Shown piece after piece: positions 1 through 39,882 of a stretch of 39,882 bases of DNA. The notes beneath the pieces were generated by a model. That model saw nothing but the letters and a program-made list of their open reading frames with translations, was not told where the DNA came from and made no database searches. The stretch spans positions 1 through 39,882 of IMG/VR virus record IMGVR_UViG_3300035698_014481, one strand, 5' to 3'. Origin of the DNA: a virus. Numbering within the stretch: the stretch's first letter is position 1; the number at the start of each line of letters is the position of its first letter. Both the position numbers and the translations under genes were made by a program.

Positions 1-127
1 CCAAAGGCTTGTGCATTGTTCTTTGTGGATGAGCAGAAGTATATTGAATACACATTCACCAAATTTGAAGTCATGCAGGTTGAGAAAGAAATCATTGAGT
101 ATGGTGACATTATAAAAAATATAACAC
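1..127. repeat. Terminal direct repeat copy A, identical to 39756-39882; assembly overlap of a circular or terminally redundant genome
   Basis: Read directly: ccaaaggcttgtgcattgttc...aaaaatataacac is present at both window ends, 127 of 127 bases identical. Confidence 0.95.
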
Positions 128-1632
128 TAGAGAACGCACCTAGGAAGCAAGAATACTGCTGGGCGTTTGGTACTCGGTGCGCTTACTACGACAAGTGCCA
201 TCAGCTGAATGAGACACTTAACATCACAATAGACATCCTTGGGAATACGTGCACGATAAACGGTGATGTAGTAGACCTGCTCAATCGTGGGATTAACAAA
301 GCTCTCTCATATGACATGAAGGATAAGTTCTATATGCAACAGAGGATCGTTAAGCAATACGGCGGTCTCAAGCCTAAGAACTATAACAGAATCGGAGTGA
401 AGTTCCTCTACAACATGGCCAAGAGACAATTTAATATCGGTCATTTTAAAAAGGTTAAAGAACTTATTGAGGCCTTTGCAGATTATAAGAAATTACAATG
501 CAACATCAAAATAGTTGATCATAGAAAGAAAATCGACAAGTTAGGCACCATGCCTGATAAACTTAAGACAGAGAATACATTAAGACCATATCAGATTGAT
601 GCTATTCAGAAATATATCGAATCAGATGGTCTTGGGTATCTTGAAGTAGCCACAGGCGGTGGCAAGACATTTATGACAGCTGAGATCATCAGACAACTTG
701 ATATTCCCACATTATGGATCGTGGATAAAAAAGAATTACTATTTCAGACCAAGGTGTGGTTTGAAGAGTACTTAGATATGGAAATTGGGCAGATCGGTGA
801 CGGTGTAAAGTCTCCAAGCACTGTTACTGTCGCCACTGTCCAAACCTTATCTAGGAATCTGAAAGAATTTGCGCCTTATCTTGCAACAGTAGGCTTAGTG
901 ATCGTAGACGAGTCACATCATGCAGCTGCTGCAACATACCAGAAAGTGTTTAGATTTCTTTCTAACGCGTGTTATCGCTTGGGTATAACTGGTACAGTTA
1001 AGCGAGATGATGGAAACGAGATGATCCTGGAGAGTCTGATTGGACCTGTGTTATATAGGATCCGTGCAGACGAACTTATCAAGCAGGGATACCTTGAAAA
1101 ACCTGAAATTATTTTTATTAACATGCCTGATTATGATATTGATAACGACGACTTACCATATCCCGAAGTGTATCATGAATACGTTGTAGATAATCATGTC
1201 CGAAATGAGATTATTTGCCAGAATATACACGGACGAACGTTGGTTCTTACAGGACGAATCGAGCACGGTGAAATGCTTGCTGAAAAGATTAAGGCTCCTT
1301 TTATCCATGGATCTTTAGATTCTAGGAAGAGAAAGAAAATCATGCAAGACTTTCGAGATGGGACAGAGGAGGTGCTTATAGGCACCATGCAGATTTTTTC
1401 AGAAGGGATAGACATCCCTGAGATGGACACGATCATAAACGCCTGTGCAAATAAGGGTGAGGTACGATCTATTCAGACCCTCGGCCGTGTACTGCGTAAA
1501 TCAAGTGCTAAGAAGTCATGCAGATATGTAGATTTTATTGACAATGTGAAGTATCTTCACGAGGCCTCCCTGGCCAGGATGAAAACATTCAAAGATCAAG
1601 GTCACGATGTGACTGTAAAGAAAGAATCCTGA
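1..1632 (+). CDS. Cas4-like PD-(D/E)XK nuclease / SF2 DEXH helicase fusion, 3' portion (continues from 39285-39755 across the circular junction; about 700 aa in total)
   Basis: The frame of track ORF 16..1632 is open back to base 1 and is in phase with the ORF opening at ATG 39285 once the 127-bp overlap is collapsed. Cys cluster CWAFGTRCAYYDKC. Helicase motifs ATGGGKT (Walker A), VDESHH (DEXH), GITGT, QTLGRVLR (motif VI). Confidence 0.85.
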   Translation, partial: PKACALFFVDEQKYIEYTFTKFEVMQVEKEIIEYGDIIKNITLENAPRKQEYCWAFGTRCAYYDKCHQLNETLNITIDILGNTCTINGDVVDLLNRGINKALSYDMKDKFYMQQRIVKQYGGLKPKNYNRIGVKFLYNMAKRQFNIGHFKKVKELIEAFADYKKLQCNIKIVDHRKKIDKLGTMPDKLKTENTLRPYQIDAIQKYIESDGLGYLEVATGGGKTFMTAEIIRQLDIPTLWIVDKKELLFQTKVWFEEYLDMEIGQIGDGVKSPSTVTVATVQTLSRNLKEFAPYLATVGLVIVDESHHAAAATYQKVFRFLSNACYRLGITGTVKRDDGNEMILESLIGPVLYRIRADELIKQGYLEKPEIIFINMPDYDIDNDDLPYPEVYHEYVVDNHVRNEIICQNIHGRTLVLTGRIEHGEMLAEKIKAPFIHGSLDSRKRKKIMQDFRDGTEEVLIGTMQIFSEGIDIPEMDTIINACANKGEVRSIQTLGRVLRKSSAKKSCRYVDFIDNVKYLHEASLARMKTFKDQGHDVTVKKES

Positions 1633-1633
1633 A

Positions 1634-1675
1634 AATAGAAACATTTATATATTGGTTGTACTATTAATTTAATAG
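1634..1675 (+). promoter_or_regulatory. Archaeal-type BRE/TATA promoter plus palindromic operator (site S1)
   Basis: AATAGAAACATTTATATA (TTTATATA at 1644-1651), 9-nt spacer, then palindrome CTATTAATTTAATAG (1661-1675). Lies in the 53-nt gap between the helicase stop and the next ORF. The same composite element occurs at 37956-37997 and, inverted, at 35356-35398. Confidence 0.6.
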
Positions 1676-3026: not shown

Positions 3027-3638
3027 ATGAATAGAAAAGAAGACCTATTGAAAAAGTACTGCAAAGGGAAGACAGTCCTGGATGTAGGATGTGCAGGTGG
3101 TCCCAATCCTCCTATCGGATTTATGCATGAGAAGATAGCAAGTGTTGCAATGTCGTGTATAGGAATTGATGCTGATCCTATAAAAATTCAACAAATGGCT
3201 AATATGTGTTTTGATGTTCATTGTGCTAATGCAGAAGATTTCCGAGTTAAAAACCAATCATTCGATATTGTTATAGCAACCGAACTGATTGAACATCTCA
3301 ACAATGTCTCTGATTTCTTATATTGTGCTAGGAGACACATGGGAAAAGACACATTATTAATCATAAGCACACCTAATCTGTATGCATTCAACCCAATTAA
3401 ACAACACATCCTTGGATATGATAAACATAGAGATAATTATCTCGATAACCACAGTGTTGTGTTTACTCCATCAACAATGGGAGAAATATTGCGAAGACAT
3501 GATCTAATTATACGAGAGTTGTATTACACATGTGAAGCAACGAACCTGAGAGGAAAAATATTCTCCTGGTTAATACCAGACATATTCCATGACAGTATGC
3601 TATTCATAATCAAGAGGAAGGAAGCCAATGATGCATGA
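3027..3638 (+). CDS. Class I SAM-dependent methyltransferase (small-molecule/protein type; no DNA-MTase motifs seen)
   Basis: Motif I VLDVGCAGGP, post-I/II region FDIVIATELIEHL, LLIISTPN. GGTGA precedes the ATG. Confidence 0.8.
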   Translation: MNRKEDLLKKYCKGKTVLDVGCAGGPNPPIGFMHEKIASVAMSCIGIDADPIKIQQMANMCFDVHCANAEDFRVKNQSFDIVIATELIEHLNNVSDFLYCARRHMGKDTLLIISTPNLYAFNPIKQHILGYDKHRDNYLDNHSVVFTPSTMGEILRRHDLIIRELYYTCEATNLRGKIFSWLIPDIFHDSMLFIIKRKEANDA

Positions 3639-3795
3639 AAAAGATTTTCAACCATGTATATGGCTGAATCAGACTGAGACAGAAAAGATTATGTACTGGC
3701 TCTCAAAATACAATGGAACAAGAGATGTAAAGGATATCCTAATTAAATTACAAACAAAGATAGATCGCGCAAAAAGCAATGGAGACTGGAAATGA
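3628..3795 (+). CDS. Hypothetical protein (55 aa), below the track cut-off
   Basis: Own translation MMHEKDFQPCIWLNQTETEKIMYWLSKYNGTRDVKDILIKLQTKIDRAKSNGDWK. Overlaps the upstream stop, and its stop overlaps the polymerase ATG (ATGA). Confidence 0.45.
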   Translation: MMHEKDFQPCIWLNQTETEKIMYWLSKYNGTRDVKDILIKLQTKIDRAKSNGDWK

Positions 3796-6053
3796 GAGAA
3801 ATAAAATTCAGAGGACAAAGAACCGACACTAAGGAATGGGTGTATGGATATTTATTTATTGATGAAGATCAACATTATATAATAAGCTCCCCAGAAGTTA
3901 TTTCTGGTGATTGGATAAGTAGTGGAGAGTCGACATTTGATGAGAATTTTGGAGGTCTTATTCTAGTCATCCCAGAATCAGTTGGGCAATACATCGGTTT
4001 AAAGGATAAGAATGGTGTAGAGATTTATGAGGGTGATGTTGTTAAAACAGATGACAAAGAAAACAATATCAGAACAATAATATTTGCACAAGGAGCCTTT
4101 ATTGCAGCAATACACTACAGCGCATTAGAAATAATAAACCAGATGAAGTCAAAATGCCTTATTTTTGATATCGAAACATGTGCGATAAGAGAAGATGGGA
4201 CACGAGTCGATATCAGAAAGGAGTTTGATGAGTATGTTGAGATAGCACAAATAAAATGGATTGGGTTCTATTCATATCTTACAGGAAAACACTATGAGAT
4301 TCCAGTTAAAGGCAATCACGGAATGAATCACGAAATAATCAAAGCATTTATAGCAAAACATGATACCTTGATTGGCTTCAACAATGAGAGATTTGATACA
4401 GTTATTTGTGGGAACAATGGTCTCTTTACAAACCGAAGGTTCATGCAAATTGATATTCAAGTTATACTAGGAAACAATAAATTTATGGGTCACAAACGCC
4501 GGCACAACGAAATGGACATAACACTTCAGGCAATAAACATAGATGGCAAACATTATGGTCCTAATTCGTTGCAAGGAATGGCTCACGCATTCGGATTACC
4601 TACTACTAAAGGAGATATTAACTACGAAATCTTTGAGAAAGATGAGTGGTCAAACGAAGAGATTGAGGAGATCAAAAAGTATCTCCGCGCAGACGTTGAA
4701 GTCACTCGTCTACTATTCGAGAAGTTATTCTATTTTTGGAAGATCTTCACAAAGTGGTTGTATGTTGAACATATTAAAGATTGGTCATGGATTAAATCAA
4801 GTATAGCATCACTTACGTATAAGGCAGCATGCAAAGTTATGCAGGTTGAACCGACATATGGTGAACCAACAGATGATCATGAAGAAATGGGTGGACGTGC
4901 GATTGAACCAGATCAAGAGGAAGTACAAAATCTCTGGTATGTAGATGAGACGGCTAAATATCCTCACATCTTTGCTGAGTTTGGATTGTTTAGTGAAATT
5001 GATGTTTCAGCATGGTCTGAAGATGAATTAAATAACGAATTAAAACTTGGTCATGTCTTTCACGGCAACAAGACATTTAAGACAAAAGGATACTATGATA
5101 TTTATAAACAATCAGCTCTTGCAATGGATGTAGTTGATAAGATAGCGACGCGTATCTATCTCAAGAAAGAAGATCCAACTAACCCACAGCAACACGCAAT
5201 CAAGATCTTTTTAAACTCATTGTATGGTGCAGTACGATCACCTATCTTTGCTCAAATACACAGCCCAAACGCGGGATATGACTGTTGTTGGTTAGGTCAA
5301 CAAATCCACGAGTATATTGAAAAAGGTTTCAAGAAGCGTGGATACGCAAGCAAAGGTGGATTTACCGACTCGTGGTTCATCAAAGCTAAGCCAGATGACA
5401 CATCAGAGCACATAGAGAGCATCTGTGAAGAGATTATGAATGAATTGCGTGCAGATATGCCCTTTCCAGTATCAACACATAGGATCGCGATAGATTGCTT
5501 CATGGAGTATGTTATGTTCCATTATGATCCAAAGCTTGAGAGATATAAAAAGAATAATTACTTGTTTATCAAGAAAGAAGCTGATGAACTAATTGTCAAG
5601 GTTGTGGGTTTTCCAATTAAGAAATCAAATGCAACTAAGCTTGGGAAGTTAATCTATTTAAAATACTTAGAACCGATGATTAAGCATGATATGAAAGCTA
5701 AATTTGATCCTAATAGTCTAGTTGGCTTTGTTGATACTGAAATGACTGTTGAAGACATGATGGTGAGATATGACTGCAAACCAAAAGAGGCCTATAAGCC
5801 TCAGAAGGATGGTACAGAGTCTACCAACATATATGCCCAGGTGAGCAGAGAATACACAGATGGGCTAGGTGGTGTTGTCTATCTAGTCAAAAATAAAAAG
5901 ATTGGTAAGTGTGGAAAGAGTTGGAAATATTGTACGATAGAAGAAGCAACAGAACATGATCTGACAATACAGGACCTAGATCGATCCAAGATTTATAATG
6001 AACTAGCACCATTTGCAATTGGTGGCAAAGTCAAGAAGGTGAAGAAGAAATGA
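3792..6053 (+). CDS. polB: Family B DNA polymerase with N-terminal YopX-like domain
   Basis: N-terminus MREIKFRGQ...WVYGY...QYIGLKDKNGVEIYEGDVV (YopX pattern). Exo I LIFDIET, Exo II IGFNNERFD, Exo III YLRADVEV. Pre-motif A GGRAIEP, motif A YVDETAKYP, motif B KIFLNSLYG, motif C GGFTDS. Confidence 0.85.
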   Translation: MREIKFRGQRTDTKEWVYGYLFIDEDQHYIISSPEVISGDWISSGESTFDENFGGLILVIPESVGQYIGLKDKNGVEIYEGDVVKTDDKENNIRTIIFAQGAFIAAIHYSALEIINQMKSKCLIFDIETCAIREDGTRVDIRKEFDEYVEIAQIKWIGFYSYLTGKHYEIPVKGNHGMNHEIIKAFIAKHDTLIGFNNERFDTVICGNNGLFTNRRFMQIDIQVILGNNKFMGHKRRHNEMDITLQAINIDGKHYGPNSLQGMAHAFGLPTTKGDINYEIFEKDEWSNEEIEEIKKYLRADVEVTRLLFEKLFYFWKIFTKWLYVEHIKDWSWIKSSIASLTYKAACKVMQVEPTYGEPTDDHEEMGGRAIEPDQEEVQNLWYVDETAKYPHIFAEFGLFSEIDVSAWSEDELNNELKLGHVFHGNKTFKTKGYYDIYKQSALAMDVVDKIATRIYLKKEDPTNPQQHAIKIFLNSLYGAVRSPIFAQIHSPNAGYDCCWLGQQIHEYIEKGFKKRGYASKGGFTDSWFIKAKPDDTSEHIESICEEIMNELRADMPFPVSTHRIAIDCFMEYVMFHYDPKLERYKKNNYLFIKKEADELIVKVVGFPIKKSNATKLGKLIYLKYLEPMIKHDMKAKFDPNSLVGFVDTEMTVEDMMVRYDCKPKEAYKPQKDGTESTNIYAQVSREYTDGLGGVVYLVKNKKIGKCGKSWKYCTIEEATEHDLTIQDLDRSKIYNELAPFAIGGKVKKVKKK

Positions 6054-35808: not shown

Positions 35809-37960
35809 GTTTATACGGACAGTAGGTAAGTTCCCGATAGACAAAAATTGGTCTACTACGAACCATTTTCCTGCAGAGGAAATCAAGGGGTCTTACGGCG
35901 TAGTTTGTGGGTACAACAACCTTATAGTAGTTGATTGCGATAATGAATACTCAGATCGCGTGCTGCACACAATAGAAACATTTAAAAACACCTTCCAAGT
36001 CATTACTGCAGGGAAACAACTAACACACTTTTATTTTTATACAGATATCCCTAAAACGATGCGTGTTCAGACACCAAAGGCTAAGTTAGATGTGCAAGGT
36101 AAGGGTGCAATGGTCGTCGGTCCAGGAACTGAGATTGATGACAGTTTATATATGATTTTAAATGATTCCGAGATCCAATTTATTACACAGGAGAATCTTC
36201 TGAAGATCTTTAGTGAGTTATTTGATTATTCACCACAATCAAGCAAACCTAAGAAAAATCAGGATAAAGTAAACGAAGACTATGATGCGGTGTGTAAGAT
36301 CATCAAGCGTGAAGTTCCAATTGAAGATGTTTTAAAAGAGAATGGAATTGATACATCGAAGCATGGTCAATTGAGTGATTGTCCATTTCATAAGAGCGAA
36401 AGTCATACATGCTTTGCCAGGTATGTTGACGATGATGAAACAATATGGAAATGCTTTCATTGTGGTAAAACAGGCAATGTTATTCAGCTCTATCAACAGA
36501 TTAAGAAGATGAGTTTCACTGAGGCAAAGGAAGAGTTAGCAGATCGAGTTAGTATTTCAAAATCACTCCAAAAACAAGTAATGGAGTTTATAAGTCAGAA
36601 GAGAAAGGAAGAAGCAACAGAGTGTATAGTTGTAGAGTTTTTACGACGATATAAGACCCTTACGCTCAGAGATGACAACAAGCCTGAGATGTGGATTTAT
36701 TCGGGTGGTGTCTACGTACCAAATGGTAGATCTTACATTAAGGAGTTTGTTGAGTCTGTCTTGGGTCCATTCTATACATCACACTATTCTGGGAAGGTTA
36801 TCTCTAAGATTGAGGCGAAGACGTTTTGTGATGAGGAGGAGTTGTTCACAAACGAAAACCCTGAATTAATTCCAGTACATAATGGTGTGTTGAACGTCAT
36901 GACTGGGACGTTGTTCCCAATATCAGATCAATATCGATTTTTTAATAAGTTACCTGTACGTTATGATCGGGATAAGGAATGCCCAAATATCAAAAAATTC
37001 TTCGAGTCGCTTCTTGATGATCCAAAGGATATCAAGACTATTCAGGAAATGTTTGGGTATGTCTTATATCGAAAGTATACATTCAAGAAGGCATTCATGA
37101 TGACAGGGAACGGGAACAATGGAAAAAGTCAGGTGTTCAATCTGTTAAGTAAATTGATAGGAGTAAAGAATCAATGTGAAATCCCATTGCAAAAGTTGGA
37201 CACTGAGAAGTTCCTCTTAGTTAATCTTCATATGAAGATGGTGAACATTGGTGGAGATATTGGTCAAGCTAGATTAGAAGAGACTCAAACATTTAAGCAG
37301 ATAACAGGACGTGATGTCGTGACAGCTGACAGGAAATTTCTGTCTACGATCTCATTTAGATCATATGCTAAGCAAATCTTTGCAGCTAATCAGATCCCGC
37401 AGACTAATGACATGTCTGACGCTTTCTTTGAGCGGTGGATTATTATCGATTTTAAGAAAACATTCAAGAATCGATTAGAGTATGAACACTTATCTGATGC
37501 TGAGAAGATCATAAATGATATCCACTTAGCAGATCCGAATATCTTAGATAAGATCGTAACTGCTGATGAATTGAGTGGTCTCTTGAACTGGTCACTCCTT
37601 GGTCTTGCTAGATTGATGAAGAATAAGGAGTTCACAACTACAACAACGGTAGATTTGGTAAGGCAGATGTGGATACGTAAATCATCATCGTTTAATGCAT
37701 TCCTTGATGATTGTATTACTCGTGTATGGAATCCAGAGGAAATGTTACTCCATGAAGATCTAATGGATAGATACCATCGCTATTGTTTCGAGCATAAAGT
37801 TAAGAGTGAGATCTCAAAGCTGACTAAAGATAAGATGAATGCATTTGGTTCAGAAAAGGTGCGGCCAATGAAAGGAGGTCAGCGTGACTGGTATTGGACT
37901 AACATCGCGTGGAAAGATGACAAAACAATTGAGAATGTGGCTAAATATGCGTCAAAATAG
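35777..37960 (+). CDS. Replicase: AEP prim-pol domain + CHC2 zinc finger + D5_N/SF3 (P4-type) helicase
   Basis: Prim-pol LIVVDCDNE (DxD), LTHFYFY (His motif), DVQGKGAMVVGPGT. Zinc finger CPFHKSESHTCF...WKCFHCGKTGNVIQL. Walker A MMTGNGNNGKSQ. GTG start overlaps the AbrB gene end. Confidence 0.85.
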   Translation: MKIPKQLQKNRFIRTVGKFPIDKNWSTTNHFPAEEIKGSYGVVCGYNNLIVVDCDNEYSDRVLHTIETFKNTFQVITAGKQLTHFYFYTDIPKTMRVQTPKAKLDVQGKGAMVVGPGTEIDDSLYMILNDSEIQFITQENLLKIFSELFDYSPQSSKPKKNQDKVNEDYDAVCKIIKREVPIEDVLKENGIDTSKHGQLSDCPFHKSESHTCFARYVDDDETIWKCFHCGKTGNVIQLYQQIKKMSFTEAKEELADRVSISKSLQKQVMEFISQKRKEEATECIVVEFLRRYKTLTLRDDNKPEMWIYSGGVYVPNGRSYIKEFVESVLGPFYTSHYSGKVISKIEAKTFCDEEELFTNENPELIPVHNGVLNVMTGTLFPISDQYRFFNKLPVRYDRDKECPNIKKFFESLLDDPKDIKTIQEMFGYVLYRKYTFKKAFMMTGNGNNGKSQVFNLLSKLIGVKNQCEIPLQKLDTEKFLLVNLHMKMVNIGGDIGQARLEETQTFKQITGRDVVTADRKFLSTISFRSYAKQIFAANQIPQTNDMSDAFFERWIIIDFKKTFKNRLEYEHLSDAEKIINDIHLADPNILDKIVTADELSGLLNWSLLGLARLMKNKEFTTTTTVDLVRQMWIRKSSSFNAFLDDCITRVWNPEEMLLHEDLMDRYHRYCFEHKVKSEISKLTKDKMNAFGSEKVRPMKGGQRDWYWTNIAWKDDKTIENVAKYASK

Positions 37961-37997
37961 AAACCTTTATATATTAATTATACTATTAAGTTAATAG
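37956..37997 (+). promoter_or_regulatory. Archaeal-type BRE/TATA promoter plus palindromic operator (site S2)
   Basis: AATAGAAACCTTTATATA, 9-nt spacer, CTATTAAGTTAATAG (37983-37997). The BRE overlaps the replicase stop codon. The next gene starts at 38044, behind AGGTGA. Confidence 0.6.
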
Positions 37998-38043
37998 AAT
38001 GGTTGTTGACAATAATAAATTCAAATTTTAATCAGGTGAAAGC

Positions 38044-38397
38044 ATGACATATGCAAGTGATAAAGGACTCGAAATTGGAGACAAAATTAAGTATCTTGGC
38101 AAAGGTGATCTTGAGACTGGGTCAATACTAACATTTACATACGATGATGACACAAGTATTCCAAAGTTTACTGATTCTAAAGGTAGAACTCAATGGTTTA
38201 GTTTAAAACGTGAGTGGGAGAAAGTGTCTATCAACAAGCCAATTTGCAGTGTTCCTAACAAAATGACTGAAAAATATTTCCCATTTGTAGGAACAGAGGG
38301 GTGTAAAGATACACCTCATCCAGTGACTGGGGATTTATCTCCAGATGACATCAATATTTTTGAACTAACACTCACAACAAAGTCTAAAAAGACTTAA
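38044..38397 (+). CDS. Hypothetical protein
   Basis: Track ORF with AGGTGA RBS. Confidence 0.6.
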   Translation: MTYASDKGLEIGDKIKYLGKGDLETGSILTFTYDDDTSIPKFTDSKGRTQWFSLKREWEKVSINKPICSVPNKMTEKYFPFVGTEGCKDTPHPVTGDLSPDDINIFELTLTTKSKKT

Positions 38398-38411
38398 CGA
38401 GATGAACAAAC

Positions 38412-39050
38412 ATGACAAACGAACAAACAGCACAAGATAAAAAAGTTTTTGCAGACATCGAAGCAGCAGACAAAGGACAACCTGCTACACCAACACCAAC
38501 ACCAGCATCGTCTAACGAACCAACTGAGTATGACCCAAATGCGCTTTCCGATACACTAATCGGTGATAAGGTAAGCTATAAACGAGAATCTTTAGATGGT
38601 CAGACGCTAGGAGTTGCACAAGTTAATCTCTATCCAGGAGATGCTACTGGTACACCTGATGCGAAAGATAGCAGCGTCAAAATAAGTCAGAATGGAATAT
38701 CAACCTATGTTAAAATGGGTTTTAAGATGACATTTGATCTTAAAAACGCTGATGACGTTAACCATCAAGAATGGTTATCAGGTGCACGACAATTTGTCCA
38801 ACGTGACGGTGGATTATCTGAACCATCATTCTGGTATGCGACAGAAGATGATTCACGAAAGAGTCAAGTCGCTAAGCTTTGGGAAAAAGTGGCTGCTGCG
38901 AAGAAAAAAGAGCCTAAAGATCTCTCTAATCGAGAATTTTTAGCATTTCTGAACAACAAACCAAAAGCGAAAATTATCTTCGAGAAACAACAAGCCTTCC
39001 CTGGTGAAAAACCAGTAAGTAAGAATATTGTTGAGAAATTCGAAGCTTAA
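38412..39050 (+). CDS. Hypothetical protein with N-terminal Pro/Thr linker (possible DNA-binding/recombination accessory by position)
   Basis: Track ORF with PATPTPTPASS low-complexity segment. No motif confirmed. Confidence 0.55.
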   Translation: MTNEQTAQDKKVFADIEAADKGQPATPTPTPASSNEPTEYDPNALSDTLIGDKVSYKRESLDGQTLGVAQVNLYPGDATGTPDAKDSSVKISQNGISTYVKMGFKMTFDLKNADDVNHQEWLSGARQFVQRDGGLSEPSFWYATEDDSRKSQVAKLWEKVAAAKKKEPKDLSNREFLAFLNNKPKAKIIFEKQQAFPGEKPVSKNIVEKFEA

Positions 39051-39141
39051 AGTCCTTAATTACTCTGGGGACACCTCAATGCGGTCTAGGCAGTTTATCT
39101 TTTTCTGCTTAGATCTTTTATATTCCTATTTGGTGATAACA

Positions 39142-39288
39142 ATGGAACAACAAACACAGATTAGACTAATCGATGAGATACATCGAATTGCAGGAATCAA
39201 CACACCGGCTCAAAGTGATTTCGAAAAAAGTTGGATTGAAGGTATGAAGGAATTAGTTCGCCAAATTGAACTAGGATTGTTCGGATGA
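39142..39288 (+). CDS. Hypothetical protein (48 aa from ATG 39142)
   Basis: GGTGA lies 5 nt before ATG 39142 (MEQQTQIRLIDE...). Its stop overlaps the nuclease-helicase ATG (ATGA). Confidence 0.45.
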   Translation: MEQQTQIRLIDEIHRIAGINTPAQSDFEKSWIEGMKELVRQIELGLFG

Positions 39289-39882
39289 TCCGACTCTCAT
39301 ATTCCCAAATCAAGCTCTTCAAGAGCTGTCCTATGAAGTACTTTCACAAGTACATACTCATGCTTCCCGAAGCACCTAATAAGCATTTACACTATGGATC
39401 GGCTGTACATGAAGCTATTGAAAAATTTATGAAAACAGATCGATTTTATTTTTCCGAGATAGAGAATAAATACCCACTTGCTATACAGAAAAAATTACTT
39501 ATAGATATTATTGAGATTTCATCTGATTCTGTAGAATGGTTCCTCAACAAATTCGGACAACCTTTACGTATTGAGCAGAAATTTTTTCAACATATACTTG
39601 ATGATATTTGGTTTATTGGCTATGCTGATGTAATTACAGGTGATGACATCATTCTGGATTGGAAGACAGGTAAGTTCACCCCATCAAAGGCAGATGATTA
39701 TAAAGAACAGACTAAATACTACGCCTATTTGTTTTATAGACAATATGGATATCTCCCAAAGGCTTGTGCATTGTTCTTTGTGGATGAGCAGAAGTATATT
39801 GAATACACATTCACCAAATTTGAAGTCATGCAGGTTGAGAAAGAAATCATTGAGTATGGTGACATTATAAAAAATATAACAC
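39285..39882 (+). CDS. Cas4-like PD-(D/E)XK nuclease / SF2 helicase fusion, 5' portion (open to the window end, continues at base 128 after collapsing the overlap)
   Basis: Own translation MIRLSYSQIKLFKSCPMKYFHKY...HYGSAVHEAIE...IGYADVITGDDIILDWKTGK...QTKYYAYLF... has no stop through base 39882. Shows an N-terminal Cys, D...DxK and QxxxY blocks typical of Cas4/RecB-type nucleases. Confidence 0.8.
   Translation, partial: MIRLSYSQIKLFKSCPMKYFHKYILMLPEAPNKHLHYGSAVHEAIEKFMKTDRFYFSEIENKYPLAIQKKLLIDIIEISSDSVEWFLNKFGQPLRIEQKFFQHILDDIWFIGYADVITGDDIILDWKTGKFTPSKADDYKEQTKYYAYLFYRQYGYLPKACALFFVDEQKYIEYTFTKFEVMQVEKEIIEYGDIIKNIT
39756..39882. repeat. Terminal direct repeat copy B, identical to 1-127
   Basis: Read directly, 127 of 127 identical. 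Confidence 0.95.

What the first reader, a model, noticed from the sequence alone, without database searches (positions are those of the whole stretch)
39285..39882. Wrap-around gene: Cas4-like Fe-S nuclease fused to an SF2 DEXH helicase
Joined across the junction (39285-39755 + 1-1632), the ORF encodes about 700 aa. The N-terminal ~215 aa carry an N-terminal Cys (SCPMKY), the GYADV...LDWKTGK (D...DxK) and QTKYY (QxxxY) blocks, and a C-terminal Cys cluster (CWAFGTRCAYYDKC). That is the Cas4/AddB-type nuclease layout with a likely 4-Cys cluster. The C-terminal half has all SF2 motifs (ATGGGKT, DESH, QTLGRVLR). Stand-alone Cas4-like nucleases are known in viruses, and nuclease-helicase fusions such as Dna2/AddAB use SF1 helicases. 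A Cas4-like domain on an SF2 (ResIII/UvsW-like) motor is an unusual end-resection or anti-defence candidate.
Basis: partly seen in the sequence, partly recalled or inferred. Interest (0 to 1): 0.6.

Follow-up and report, generated by a model that had tools for sequence, protein, structure and literature searches.

The report
Viral Cas4-like nuclease fused to UvsW-type helicase
The gene that wraps around the ends of this circular 39.8-kb uncultivated virus is real and intact, and joins a Cas4/RecB-type DNA-cutting domain to a complete UvsW/XPB-type DNA motor in one 700-residue protein; this fusion is common in metagenomic viruses but unstudied, and most likely trims or remodels DNA ends and forks during viral replication.

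Summary
Bases 1-127 equal 39756-39882, and the ORF 39285-39755 + 1-1632 reads through as 700 aa.

- **Nuclease domain (residues 1-226).** It matches PDDEXK_1 and Cas_Cas4. H42, E97, D115, D125, K127, Q142 and Y146 are kept in 161-165 of 165 relatives. Cys15 plus a C-terminal CX6CX5C motif are present.
- **Helicase (residues ~230-700).** This part aligns end to end with free-standing helicases that carry the UvsW_N domain, so it is a complete UvsW/XPB-like SF2 helicase.
- **Family.** At least 136 of the 150 best 50%-identity representatives out of 1.84 billion proteins are the same fusion. They form one clade. There is one hit on a cellular (MAG) contig and none among 50,697 deposited phages.
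- **Cysteines.** The four Cys are ancestral and were lost together at least 8 times, as expected for ligands of one Fe-S cluster.
- **Context.** The gene is the last in a replication-module operon, directly after a conserved unknown protein of about 200 aa.

Best reading: a single-chain helicase-nuclease for end resection or branched-DNA processing in recombination-dependent replication. Anti-defence has no support from context. It is a new variant of a known kind, of moderate interest. The scan had already noted the end overlap and the replication toolkit on this same genome.

The parts
39285..39882 (+). 5' part of the nuclease-helicase gene (codons 1-199). The ATG at 39285 overlaps the TGA of the preceding small ORF. 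The unique part ends at 39755; 39756-39882 repeats bases 1-127.
   Evidence: homologue N-termini (MLRLS[YF]SQ[IL]KLF..C) confirm the start
1..1632 (+). 3' part of the same gene (codons 158-700 plus the stop at 1630-1632)
1..127 (.). 127-bp end overlap, identical to 39756-39882. It is an assembly signature of a circular or permuted genome and lies inside the nuclease domain coding region.
39285..39755 (+). Cas4/RecB-like PD-(D/E)XK nuclease domain, first 157 residues: Cys15 (39327-39329), H42, E97, D115, D125-x-K127, Q142xxxY146
   Evidence: Pfam PDDEXK_1 5e-16, Cas_Cas4 3.7e-5; PHROG 69 exonuclease 2e-23; residues kept in 161-165 of 165 relatives
1..207 (+). Nuclease domain, residues 158-226, including the three C-terminal Cys (C210, C217, C223 at nt 157-198; spacing CX6CX5C)
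214..534 (+). Middle domain (aa ~229-335), equivalent to the UvsW_N N-terminal domain of free-standing UvsW-like helicases
   Evidence: hhalign of the fusion family against unfused UvsW_N-bearing helicases: probability 100, E 5e-99, alignment starts at their residue 1; UvsW_N is detected by Pfam in the unfused relative P0042
577..1629 (+). SF2 helicase core: RecA1/ResIII (motif I ATGGGKT 649-669, motif II DESH 907-918, motif III plus the RDD motif 985-1014) and RecA2/Helicase_C (motif VI QTLGRVLR 1474-1497), plus the C-terminal tail
   Evidence: Pfam ResIII 2e-24, Helicase_C 1e-16, ERCC3_RAD25_C 3.6e-9; PHROG 16 DNA helicase 1e-82; PDB XPBII 3e-30, UvsW 2e-14
38412..39050 (+). Conserved upstream partner gene (212 aa, no known family). 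A homologue lies directly upstream of the fusion gene in 5 of 6 related viral loci.
   Evidence: no Pfam, PHROG or PDB match
39142..39288 (+). Small ORF (48 aa from the ATG at 39142) whose stop overlaps the start of the fusion gene, suggesting translational coupling
37954..37975 (+). Promoter-like 22-nt element (TTTATATA box) at the head of the transcription unit 38044 to 1632
   Evidence: 2 exact or near-exact copies, 0 expected by chance
1632..1653 (+). Second copy of the promoter-like element. It starts on the last base of the stop codon and marks the end of the unit and the start of the next.

Best explanation
The wrap-around ORF is one intact gene for a 700-aa single-chain helicase-nuclease. 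It has three parts: an N-terminal Cas4/RecB-family PD-(D/E)XK nuclease carrying a four-Cys 'iron staple' (aa 1-226); a UvsW_N-like DNA-junction-binding domain (aa ~229-335); and an XPB/UvsW-like SF2 DExH motor (aa ~345-700). It is the last gene of an early operon in the replication module of an uncultivated tailed virus from salt-lake metagenomes. Proposed mechanism (inferred, not shown): the ATP-driven motor engages a DNA end or a branched intermediate such as a stalled fork, D-loop or junction, as T4 UvsW and archaeal XPB do. It then hands the displaced single strand to the tethered Mg-dependent nuclease. The products would be resected 3'-tailed ends or cleaved branches that feed recombination-dependent replication, concatemer formation and repair. 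The virus's own junction resolvase, ligase and PolB, and probably the conserved ~200-aa partner encoded just upstream, would take part. Shown here: gene integrity, domain identities, conservation of catalytic and motor motifs, single origin and wide spread of the fusion, virus-specific distribution, and replication-module context. Inferred: substrates, polarity, Fe-S occupancy and partner interaction.
For: **Integrity.** The 127-bp overlap and open frame are confirmed. Colinear homologues lie inside long contigs.
**Nuclease.** PDDEXK_1 5e-16 for the window piece; the full profile (1-247) is covered at 7e-23 in homologue P0006, together with Cas_Cas4 1.5e-8. The AF2 model of a homologous N-domain (pLDDT 95, pTM 0.89) matches Cas4-family ACE1 (Z 17.9, 222 of 235 residues aligned), AdnA (Z 16.9), AddB (Z 14.9), Dna2 (Z 12.9) and Cas4 SSO0001 (Z 12.3) over model residues 1-~230. 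H42, E97, D115 and K127 are kept in 165/165, D125 and Y146 in 164, and Q142 in 161.
**Cysteines.** The patterns are CCCC 73 (plus 7 N-truncated gene calls) and ---C 60. The set is ancestral and was lost jointly at least 8 times on the tree.
**Helicase.** All SF2 motifs are conserved. The best NCBIfam match is XPB (2.7e-32). PDB matches are XPBII 3e-30 and UvsW 2e-14. Foldseek gives XPB 5e-26 and UvsW 8e-22 on a pLDDT-88.7 full-length model. hhalign shows that aa 231-699 equal a whole unfused UvsW_N helicase.
**Family.** At least 136 of the 150 best representatives are fused, and they form one clade with SH support 0.997. About 15 members carry inteins in the motor, as is typical of essential replication proteins.
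**Context.** The gene lies between a prim-pol/SF3 replicase and PolB, a junction resolvase and an ATP-dependent ligase. Relatives lie beside PolB, a clamp loader, a primase and a ligase. Cas4 proteins are 5'-3' ssDNA exonucleases with Fe-S clusters (PMC3466216, PMC4176176, abstracts seen).
Against: No biochemical or expression data exist; no RNA run was listed. The structural models are of homologues 41-46% identical to the window protein, not of the protein itself, which could not be passed by reference because it straddles the junction. The window's Cys spacing (CX6CX5C) departs from the canonical CX2CX5C. About half of the family lacks the cluster, so it is dispensable for the family's core function. 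The window has no recognisable recombinase, annealase or SSB (no Rad51/RecA, DUF669 or Enc34), so the recombination pathway is incomplete as annotated. The partner protein has no assignable fold. No sequencing contig bridged 39755 to 128.
Confidence: 0.65

Rival explanations
1. It is a host-takeover or anti-defence enzyme. The motor-nuclease degrades host chromosomal DNA for nucleotide scavenging, or it interferes with host CRISPR adaptation or other DNA-targeting defence, as proposed for the Cas4-like proteins of Campylobacter phages.
For: The nearest nuclease matches among deposited phages are the Campylobacter phage RecB/Cas4-like exonucleases. Cas4-like nucleases are frequent in mobile elements, with disputed roles (PMC5704561). 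Processive helicase-nucleases can destroy DNA.
Against: The gene sits inside the replication operon next to the replicase, PolB, ligase and resolvase, and relatives keep that neighbourhood. No Cas1 or CRISPR part is present in the genome. The UvsW_N junction-binding domain and intein invasion fit a core DNA-metabolism enzyme. No methylase-linked or defence-island context was seen.
Confidence: 0.15
2. It is a restriction-like or superinfection-exclusion enzyme: a PD-(D/E)XK nuclease on an SF2 translocase, as in type I HsdR, type ISP or SauUSI-like enzymes, that cuts competing foreign DNA.
For: The architecture (N-terminal PD-(D/E)XK plus SF2 motor) is the same as HsdR. SauUSI, LlaBIII, the Dnd restriction enzyme and EcoAI HsdR appear as weaker helicase matches.
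Against: There is no specificity or modification partner next to the gene; the only methyltransferase-like ORF (3027-3638) is in another transcription unit. The nuclease is of the Cas4/RecB exonuclease clade, not the Mrr/HsdR-type endonuclease. NCBIfam restriction models score far below their cut-offs. The family is almost confined to viral contigs, with one contig among 185,579 species genomes.
Confidence: 0.08
3. Only the helicase is functional. The nuclease domain is a degenerate DNA-binding or structural module, as in the inactive nuclease-like domains of some repair proteins.
For: About half of the family lost the Cys cluster, which shows relaxed constraint on part of the domain.
Against: All catalytic residues (H42, E97, D115, D125, K127, Q142, Y146) are kept in 161-165 of 165 sequences, including lineages without the Cys. 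LinCas4 keeps endonuclease activity without its cluster (PMC8610317 highlights).
Confidence: 0.05
4. It is an assembly artefact. The two halves belong to different molecules, or to a linear genome whose ends fall inside the ORF, so no 700-aa protein is made.
For: The join rests on a 127-bp overlap of the length typical of an assembler k-mer. No public contig bridged it, and one Logan contig ends exactly at 39755.
Against: The frame is kept across the join. More than 150 homologues have the same uninterrupted architecture, with the join inside a conserved fold. A split at residue 157 would separate the catalytic core from its C-terminal helices and Cys.
Confidence: 0.02

Closest known systems
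T4 UvsW and free-standing UvsW-like phage helicases (Pfam UvsW_N + ResIII + Helicase_C; PHROG 16)
   Same: Residues ~230-700 align end to end with them, including the N-terminal junction-binding domain (hhalign prob 100; PDB 2oca 2e-14 and Foldseek 8e-22). They share the replication/recombination gene context.
   Different: UvsW has no nuclease. Here a 226-aa Cas4-like nuclease is fused upstream. The fused proteins form their own clade, sister to the unfused ones.
Archaeal XPB (with its separate partner nuclease Bax1)
   Same: It is the best-scoring helicase family by sequence and fold (NF045503 2.7e-32; 6p4f/5tnu 3e-30). The XPB-Bax1 pair is a helicase-nuclease machine acting on forked DNA, so the logic is analogous.
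   Different: The score is far below the XPB equivalog cut-off (112 vs 610 bits). The nuclease here is covalently fused, N-terminal and of the Cas4/RecB fold, not Bax1.
Cas4 / Cas4-like (PF01930, PF12705) nucleases, including ACE1, phage and archaeal-virus solo Cas4-like proteins
   Same: Fold (Z 17.9 to ACE1, 12.3 to SSO0001), the D...DxK and QxxxY motifs, and the 1+3 Cys arrangement.
   Different: It is not CRISPR-associated: there is no Cas1, and TIGR00372 scores 37 bits against a cut-off of 65. The Cys spacing in this subclade is CX6CX5C. It is fused to a motor.
AddAB / AdnAB / RecBCD and Dna2 helicase-nucleases
   Same: A RecB/Cas4-type nuclease, with an Fe-S staple in AddB and Dna2, is coupled to a DNA motor for end resection. 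Structural matches reach Z 12.9-16.9. As in Dna2, the nuclease lies N-terminal to the motor.
   Different: Those motors are SF1; this one is SF2 (XPB/UvsW-like). This is a single 700-aa chain rather than a multi-subunit or >1000-aa enzyme.
UvrD-Cas4 fusion proteins of bacteria and archaea (Hudaiberdiev et al. 2017, PMC5704561)
   Same: A PF12705 Cas4-like domain fused to a helicase, with monophyletic fusion proteins.
   Different: The helicase is SF1 UvrD, the nuclease is C-terminal, and the genes are cellular with a defence-island context. The same paper reports only a neighbourhood link, not a fusion, between Cas4-like nucleases and an SF2 (YprA) helicase.
Type I restriction HsdR / type ISP enzymes / Hef-FANCM
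   Same: A PD-(D/E)XK-type nuclease on an SF2 motor in one chain.
   Different: They use different nuclease subfamilies (Mrr/HsdR-type or ERCC4) and different motor families. They need specificity or modification subunits, or have the reverse domain order. Model scores are far below their cut-offs.

Membership tests
Pfam PDDEXK_1 (PF12705), RecB/Cas4-like nuclease superfamily | Profile match above the gathering score | tested here: met
   59.8 bits against a cut-off of 22 for window residues 3-170. Homologue P0006 covers profile positions 1-247 at 82 bits.
Pfam PDDEXK_1 (PF12705), RecB/Cas4-like nuclease superfamily | Catalytic motifs D...(D/E)xK and QxxxY | tested here: met
   D115, D125-W-K127 and Q142xxxY146 are present and kept in 161-165 of 165 relatives.
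Pfam PDDEXK_1 (PF12705), RecB/Cas4-like nuclease superfamily | RecB-like fold | tested here: met
   The AF2 N-domain of homologue L003/P0126 (pLDDT 95) gives Z 17.9 to ACE1, 16.9 to AdnA, 14.9 to AddB and 10.6 to RecB. This is a homologue, not the window protein itself.
Cas4 proper (TIGR00372 / CRISPR adaptation Cas4) | Score above the equivalog cut-off | tested here: not met
   36.8 bits against a cut-off of 65. PF01930 is only marginally met, at 24.3 against 22.7.
Cas4 proper (TIGR00372 / CRISPR adaptation Cas4) | Association with cas1/cas2 or a CRISPR array | tested here: not met
   No Cas1 (PF01867) in the complete genome; the control genomes rang.
Fe-S 'iron staple' nucleases (Cas4, AddB, Dna2, Exo5) | One N-terminal Cys plus three C-terminal Cys (canonical CX2CX5C) | tested here: met
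   C15, C210, C217 and C223 are present. The spacing here is CX6CX5C (6 family members); others have CX2CX5C (34) or CX3CX5C (22).
Fe-S 'iron staple' nucleases (Cas4, AddB, Dna2, Exo5) | The four Cys converge on one cluster | not testable with these tools
   Model coordinates are not exposed. Indirect support comes from all-or-none presence (CCCC 73+7, ---C 60) with at least 8 joint losses on the tree, and from structural alignments to AddB and Dna2 that span both Cys-bearing termini.
Fe-S 'iron staple' nucleases (Cas4, AddB, Dna2, Exo5) | Bound Fe-S cluster | not testable with these tools
   Needs UV-vis or EPR on purified protein.
SF2 helicases (ResIII + Helicase_C) | Motifs I, II (DExH), III and VI, and two RecA-like domains | tested here: met
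   ATGGGKT, DESH, TGT and QTLGRVLR are all present. ResIII 2e-24 and Helicase_C 1e-16. The motifs are nearly invariant in the family.
UvsW-like helicases | UvsW_N N-terminal domain followed by the SF2 core | tested here: met
   Pfam UvsW_N is not detected directly in the fusion. The profile-profile alignment to UvsW_N-bearing helicases covers that domain from their residue 1 (prob 100, E 5e-99).
UvsW-like helicases | Stand-alone helicase architecture | tested here: not met
   A 226-aa nuclease is fused upstream, and the fusion clade is separate from the unfused clade.
XPB (NF045503) | Equivalog-level score | tested here: not met
   112 bits against a cut-off of 610. It is XPB-like, not XPB.
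AddAB / RecBCD / AdnAB / Dna2 helicase-nucleases | SF1 (UvrD/RecD/Upf1-like) motor | tested here: not met
   The motor matches SF2 families only.
Type I restriction HsdR | HsdR profile and adjacent HsdM/HsdS | tested here: not met
   No HsdR model matches the window protein at E <= 0.001. EcoAI HsdR matches homologue P0006 at 63 bits against a cut-off of 550. The neighbours are a replicase, unknown ORFs and PolB.

The most novel reading that the evidence does not exclude
The nuclease-helicase and the conserved, fold-unknown ~200-aa protein encoded just upstream form a previously unrecognised two-component recombination or end-processing system. It would be specific to a large group of uncultivated viruses, possibly of DPANN archaea, and would be an SF2-based counterpart of AddAB/RecBCD or RecE-RecT. 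It would supply resection and strand handling to viruses that encode no recognisable recombinase or SSB.
Probability: 0.3. Interest if true: 0.65.

Novelty: new variant of a known kind. Interest (0 to 1): 0.45.

Why it matters
All well-studied Cas4/RecB-type helicase-nucleases (RecBCD, AddAB, AdnAB, Dna2, UvrD-Cas4) use SF1 motors. This family shows that the same Fe-S nuclease module was also recruited once, and stably, to a UvsW/XPB-type SF2 branch-remodelling motor. The fusion then spread through a large, apparently virus-only lineage.

The family offers three things:
- a compact 700-aa, single-chain model for studying how a junction-specific SF2 motor is coupled to strand degradation;
- a natural experiment on the role of the iron staple, with at least 8 independent joint losses;
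- a conserved unknown partner protein that may be a new SSB- or annealase-like factor.

It also gives a functional annotation to hundreds of metagenomic proteins now labelled only 'SF II helicase'.

Tried and rejected
- **Blocked tools and references.** The joined 700-aa protein has no single reference, so family, structure and database tools were given the two overlapping pieces or homologues. The joined sequence was used only inside scripts.
- **Junction reads.** Only short, low-depth Logan contigs from salt-lake metagenomes were laid. None bridges 39755 to 128; one runs over the end from inside the repeat. This is inconclusive.
- **Expression.** No RNA holder was listed.
- **Stand-alone nuclease relatives.** A search for proteins of 109-349 aa found none at word-based sensitivity.
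- **Rosetta-stone check.** No separate family-type nuclease gene lies within ±6 kb of unfused helicase relatives in 24 viral loci. The unfused L011 helicase has a radical-SAM protein upstream.
- **Cellular genomes.** A scan of 185,579 species found one MAG contig labelled Pseudomonadota and one spurious hit.
- **PDB by sequence, N-domain profile.** Only weak hits appeared, to Cas4 SSO0001 (E 0.045) and Pcal_0546 (E 1.1).
- **Partner protein.** Pfam, PHROG and a PDB profile gave nothing. The Atlas gave only a sub-threshold DUF669 lead (0.86), and its own model is poor. DUF669 and Enc34 searches of the genome were negative, but the controls did not ring either.
- **Host.** The listing of cluster members gave no organism names.
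- **Literature.** Five accepted searches found no description of this fusion.
Full report

Yes. The window is an IMG/VR virus record of 39,882 bases. Its first 127 bases are identical to its last 127, so the unique unit is 39,755 bp. IMG/VR classes it as having direct terminal repeats, and CheckV rates it 100% complete.

The ORF that runs off the 3' end (39285-39881, 199 codons) and the ORF that is open at the 5' end (1-1632, 543 codons) overlap in the repeat and are in phase. Joined as 39285-39755 + 1-1632 they give a 700-residue protein with a single terminal stop. The ATG at 39285 overlaps the TGA of a small upstream ORF. Homologues start with the same MLRLS(Y/F)SQ(I/L)KLF..C sequence, so the start codon is secure.

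**2. Are the two halves contiguous in nature?**

I could not get a read or contig that bridges 39755 to 128. The only public holders are low-depth salt-lake metagenome contigs of 150-340 bases.

Comparative evidence settles the point. About 36 protein clusters of 626-740 aa carry PF12705, PF04851 and PF00271 together and align colinearly with the joined protein. Six IMG/VR loci have the same gene in the interior of 31-116 kb contigs. The junction falls at residue 157/158, in the middle of the nuclease fold. A 127-base overlap is also the usual signature of a circular path closed by an assembler (my knowledge of common k-mer settings).

**3. The N-terminal domain (aa 1-226)**

- **Profile matches.** Pfam gives PDDEXK_1 (5e-16) and Cas_Cas4 (3.7e-5, above the gathering score) for the window piece. 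PHROGs gives 'exonuclease' families 69 and 1218. In the full-length homologue P0006 the PDDEXK_1 profile is covered from position 1 to 247 (7e-23), with Cas_Cas4 at 1.5e-8.
- **Conserved residues.** Across 165 family sequences, H42, E97, D115 and K127 are invariant, D125 and Y146 are kept in 164, and Q142 in 161.
- **Fold.** An AlphaFold2 model of the N-domain of the L003/P0126 homologue (41% identical to the window in this domain) reached pLDDT 95.1 and pTM 0.89. Its best structural matches are all Cas4/RecB-clade nucleases, aligned over model residues 1 to ~230: Argonaute-associated Cas4-family ACE1 (Z 17.9, 222 residues), AdnA (Z 16.9), AddB (Z 14.9), RecE (Z 13.4), Dna2 (Z 12.9), Cas4 in Cas4-Cas1-Cas2 (Z ~12), SSO0001 Cas4 (Z 12.3), Exo5 and RecB.
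- **Not a CRISPR Cas4.** TIGR00372 scores 37 bits against a cut-off of 65, and the genome has no Cas1.

**4. The cysteines**

The window has C15 and C210-X6-C217-X5-C223. Most relatives have CX2CX5C (34) or CX3CX5C (22). The window's small subclade has a four-residue insert.

I could not measure distances because model coordinates are not exposed. Indirect evidence is good:
- Across 165 sequences the four positions are essentially all-or-none: CCCC 73, plus 7 N-terminally truncated calls with the other three Cys, against ---C 60.
- On a helicase-domain tree the four-Cys state is basal and was lost jointly in at least eight separate clades.
- Structural alignments to AddB and Dna2, whose clusters staple the two ends of the domain (established knowledge), span both Cys-bearing termini.

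The repeated losses, with the catalytic residues fully retained, show that the cluster is not needed for the core function of the family. [quoted passage not shown]

**5. The C-terminal 470 residues**

Pfam gives ResIII (2e-24), Helicase_C (1e-16) and ERCC3_RAD25_C (3.6e-9). PHROG 16 'DNA helicase' scores 1e-82.

The closest solved proteins by sequence are archaeal XPBII (3e-30), A. fulgidus XPB (2.6e-24), SauUSI and T4 UvsW (2e-14). The best NCBIfam model is XPB, but at 112 bits against a cut-off of 610.

A full-length AF2 model of homologue P0006 (46% identical; pLDDT 88.7) matches XPB (5e-26), TFIIH XPB, UvsW (8e-22) and RadD.

The 100-residue 'linker' is not a linker. A profile-profile comparison of the fusion family with free-standing helicases that carry Pfam UvsW_N aligns P0006 residues 231-699 with those proteins from their first residue to their last (probability 100, E 5e-99). 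The protein is therefore a Cas4-like nuclease placed in front of a complete UvsW-type helicase, including its junction-binding N-domain.

**6. How widespread is it, and is it one invention?**

A profile of the fusion searched against 1.84 billion 50%-identity representatives returned 150 best hits (the worst at E 4e-120). At least 136 of them carry both parts. About 15 are 900-1195 aa because an intein is inserted in the motor domain; P0123 has Intein_splicing plus LAGLIDADG.

On a tree of the helicase part, all true fusions fall in one clade (168 tips, support 0.997). The only exceptions are 14 scattered short proteins, which are probably truncated gene calls or secondary losses. The genuinely unfused UvsW_N helicases form the sister clade.

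By contrast:
- None of 50,697 deposited phage genomes has the fusion. Helicase matches there begin after the nuclease, and the nuclease piece matches only the stand-alone RecB/Cas4-like exonucleases of Campylobacter phages.
- BFVD holds a single full-length look-alike, a 792-aa 'SSL2 helicase' of an uncultured Caudovirales phage.
- One contig among 185,579 prokaryotic species genomes has it.
- No stand-alone close relative of the nuclease was found.
- Unfused helicase loci do not have such a nuclease next door.

JGI's automatic names already say 'SF II helicase / Cas4 (RecB family) exonuclease' for some members. I found no paper that describes the fusion. The Cas4 phylogenomics study reports UvrD(SF1)-Cas4 fusions and only a neighbourhood link to an SF2 YprA helicase.

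**7. Context**

In the window the gene closes a transcription unit that starts after a 22-nt TTTATATA-containing element at 37954-37975. A second copy of that element begins at the gene's stop codon. An earlier follow-up in this scan read these elements as archaeal BRE/TATA promoters and suggested a DPANN host. I only confirmed the two copies.

The unit contains a 117-aa ORF, a 212-aa ORF, a 48-aa ORF and the fusion. Flanking units encode a prim-pol/SF3 replicase upstream, and a YopX-PolB, a junction resolvase and an ATP-dependent ligase downstream.

The 212-aa protein has a homologue directly upstream of the fusion gene in L003, L004, L005, L006 and L008. Several of its homologues have a longest-contig length equal to that listed for a fusion protein (5535, 8699, 3343, 11306, 76578), which suggests the same contigs. 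Its family has at least 253 clusters, no Pfam domain and a conserved C-terminal KN..(E/K)F tail. One member is filed under a Pacearchaeota MAG. Its fold remains unknown.

Related loci place the fusion beside PolB, a clamp loader, a primase and a ligase. The genome has no recognisable RecA/Rad51, DUF669 or Enc34-type SSB.

**8. Mechanism**

Shown here: an intact catalytic nuclease, an intact motor, a junction-binding domain, covalent coupling kept across a large clade, and replication-module context.

Established for relatives:
- Cas4 proteins are Fe-S 5'-3' ssDNA exonucleases (PMC3466216, PMC4176176).
- UvsW unwinds and migrates branched DNA, and XPB works with the Bax1 nuclease on forks (textbook knowledge and PDB titles).
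- AddAB, AdnAB and Dna2 couple such nucleases to motors for resection.

Inferred: the motor loads at an end or branch and feeds the displaced strand to the nuclease. This would give 3'-tailed or trimmed intermediates for recombination-dependent replication and concatemer processing, possibly together with the upstream partner.

I give this 0.65. Host-DNA degradation or anti-defence gets 0.15, a restriction-like role 0.08, an inactive nuclease 0.05 and an assembly artefact 0.02.

**9. Verdict**

It is a new variant of a known kind (helicase-nuclease), moderately interesting and directly testable in vitro.

Noticed in passing
window 38412-39050 (homologues at L003:5047-5667, L004:5359-5943, L005:5349-5951, L006:5118-5738, L008:5180-5752): A ~200-aa protein with no Pfam, PHROG or PDB match is conserved directly upstream of the nuclease-helicase gene. 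Its family has at least 253 clusters, an acidic N-terminus and a conserved extreme C-terminal KN-x-x-x-(E/K)F tail. One member is filed under a Candidatus Pacearchaeota MAG. It may be an SSB- or annealase-like partner (weak Atlas lead to DUF669 only).
   Followed up: partly
family members P0123, P0125, P0128, P0133, P0144, P0147 and others (900-1195 aa): About 15 of the 150 best representatives carry a large insertion in the helicase domain, near the DExH region or after motif I. In P0123 it is an intein with a LAGLIDADG homing endonuclease.
   Followed up: partly
window 37954-37975 and 1632-1653: Two copies of a 22-nt element (AAAATAGAAAC-N-TTTATATATT), each followed by a CTATTAA-N-TTAATAG palindrome, bracket the operon that ends with the nuclease-helicase. 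Zero copies are expected by chance.
   Followed up: partly
window 3792-6053: The 753-aa polymerase has an N-terminal YopX domain (5e-13) followed by a PolB-type exonuclease. Among 50,697 deposited phages, tblastn matched only the YopX part (Flavobacterium phages). Close homologues (42% identity) are in L005 and L008.
   Followed up: no
window 39568-39755 (run X1, Logan contig record 5): A public salt-lake metagenome contig ends exactly at 39755, the last base before the terminal repeat. It probably reflects a graph-node boundary in the same or a sister data set, but it coincides with the contig's cut point.
   Followed up: no
whole window: All seven public runs that hold parts of 38000-39882 are labelled salt lake metagenome (shares 0.06-0.34). 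TerL is only 20-27% identical to any deposited phage. The virus belongs to a lineage with no cultured relative.
   Followed up: partly
L011:5010-7371: A free-standing relative of the helicase (464 aa, starting at the UvsW_N-like domain) overlaps the end of a radical-SAM protein gene (PHROG 9298, 5e-58) and lies downstream of a PolA-type polymerase. No nuclease gene is nearby.
   Followed up: partly
L033:1367-3196 (MAG contig CAZJVC010000031.1): This is the only fused homologue found in 185,579 species genomes. It sits on a 10.8-kb contig binned as 'uncultured Pseudomonadota bacterium', which conflicts with the archaeal host proposed for the window and is probably a viral contig swept into a bin.
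   Followed up: no
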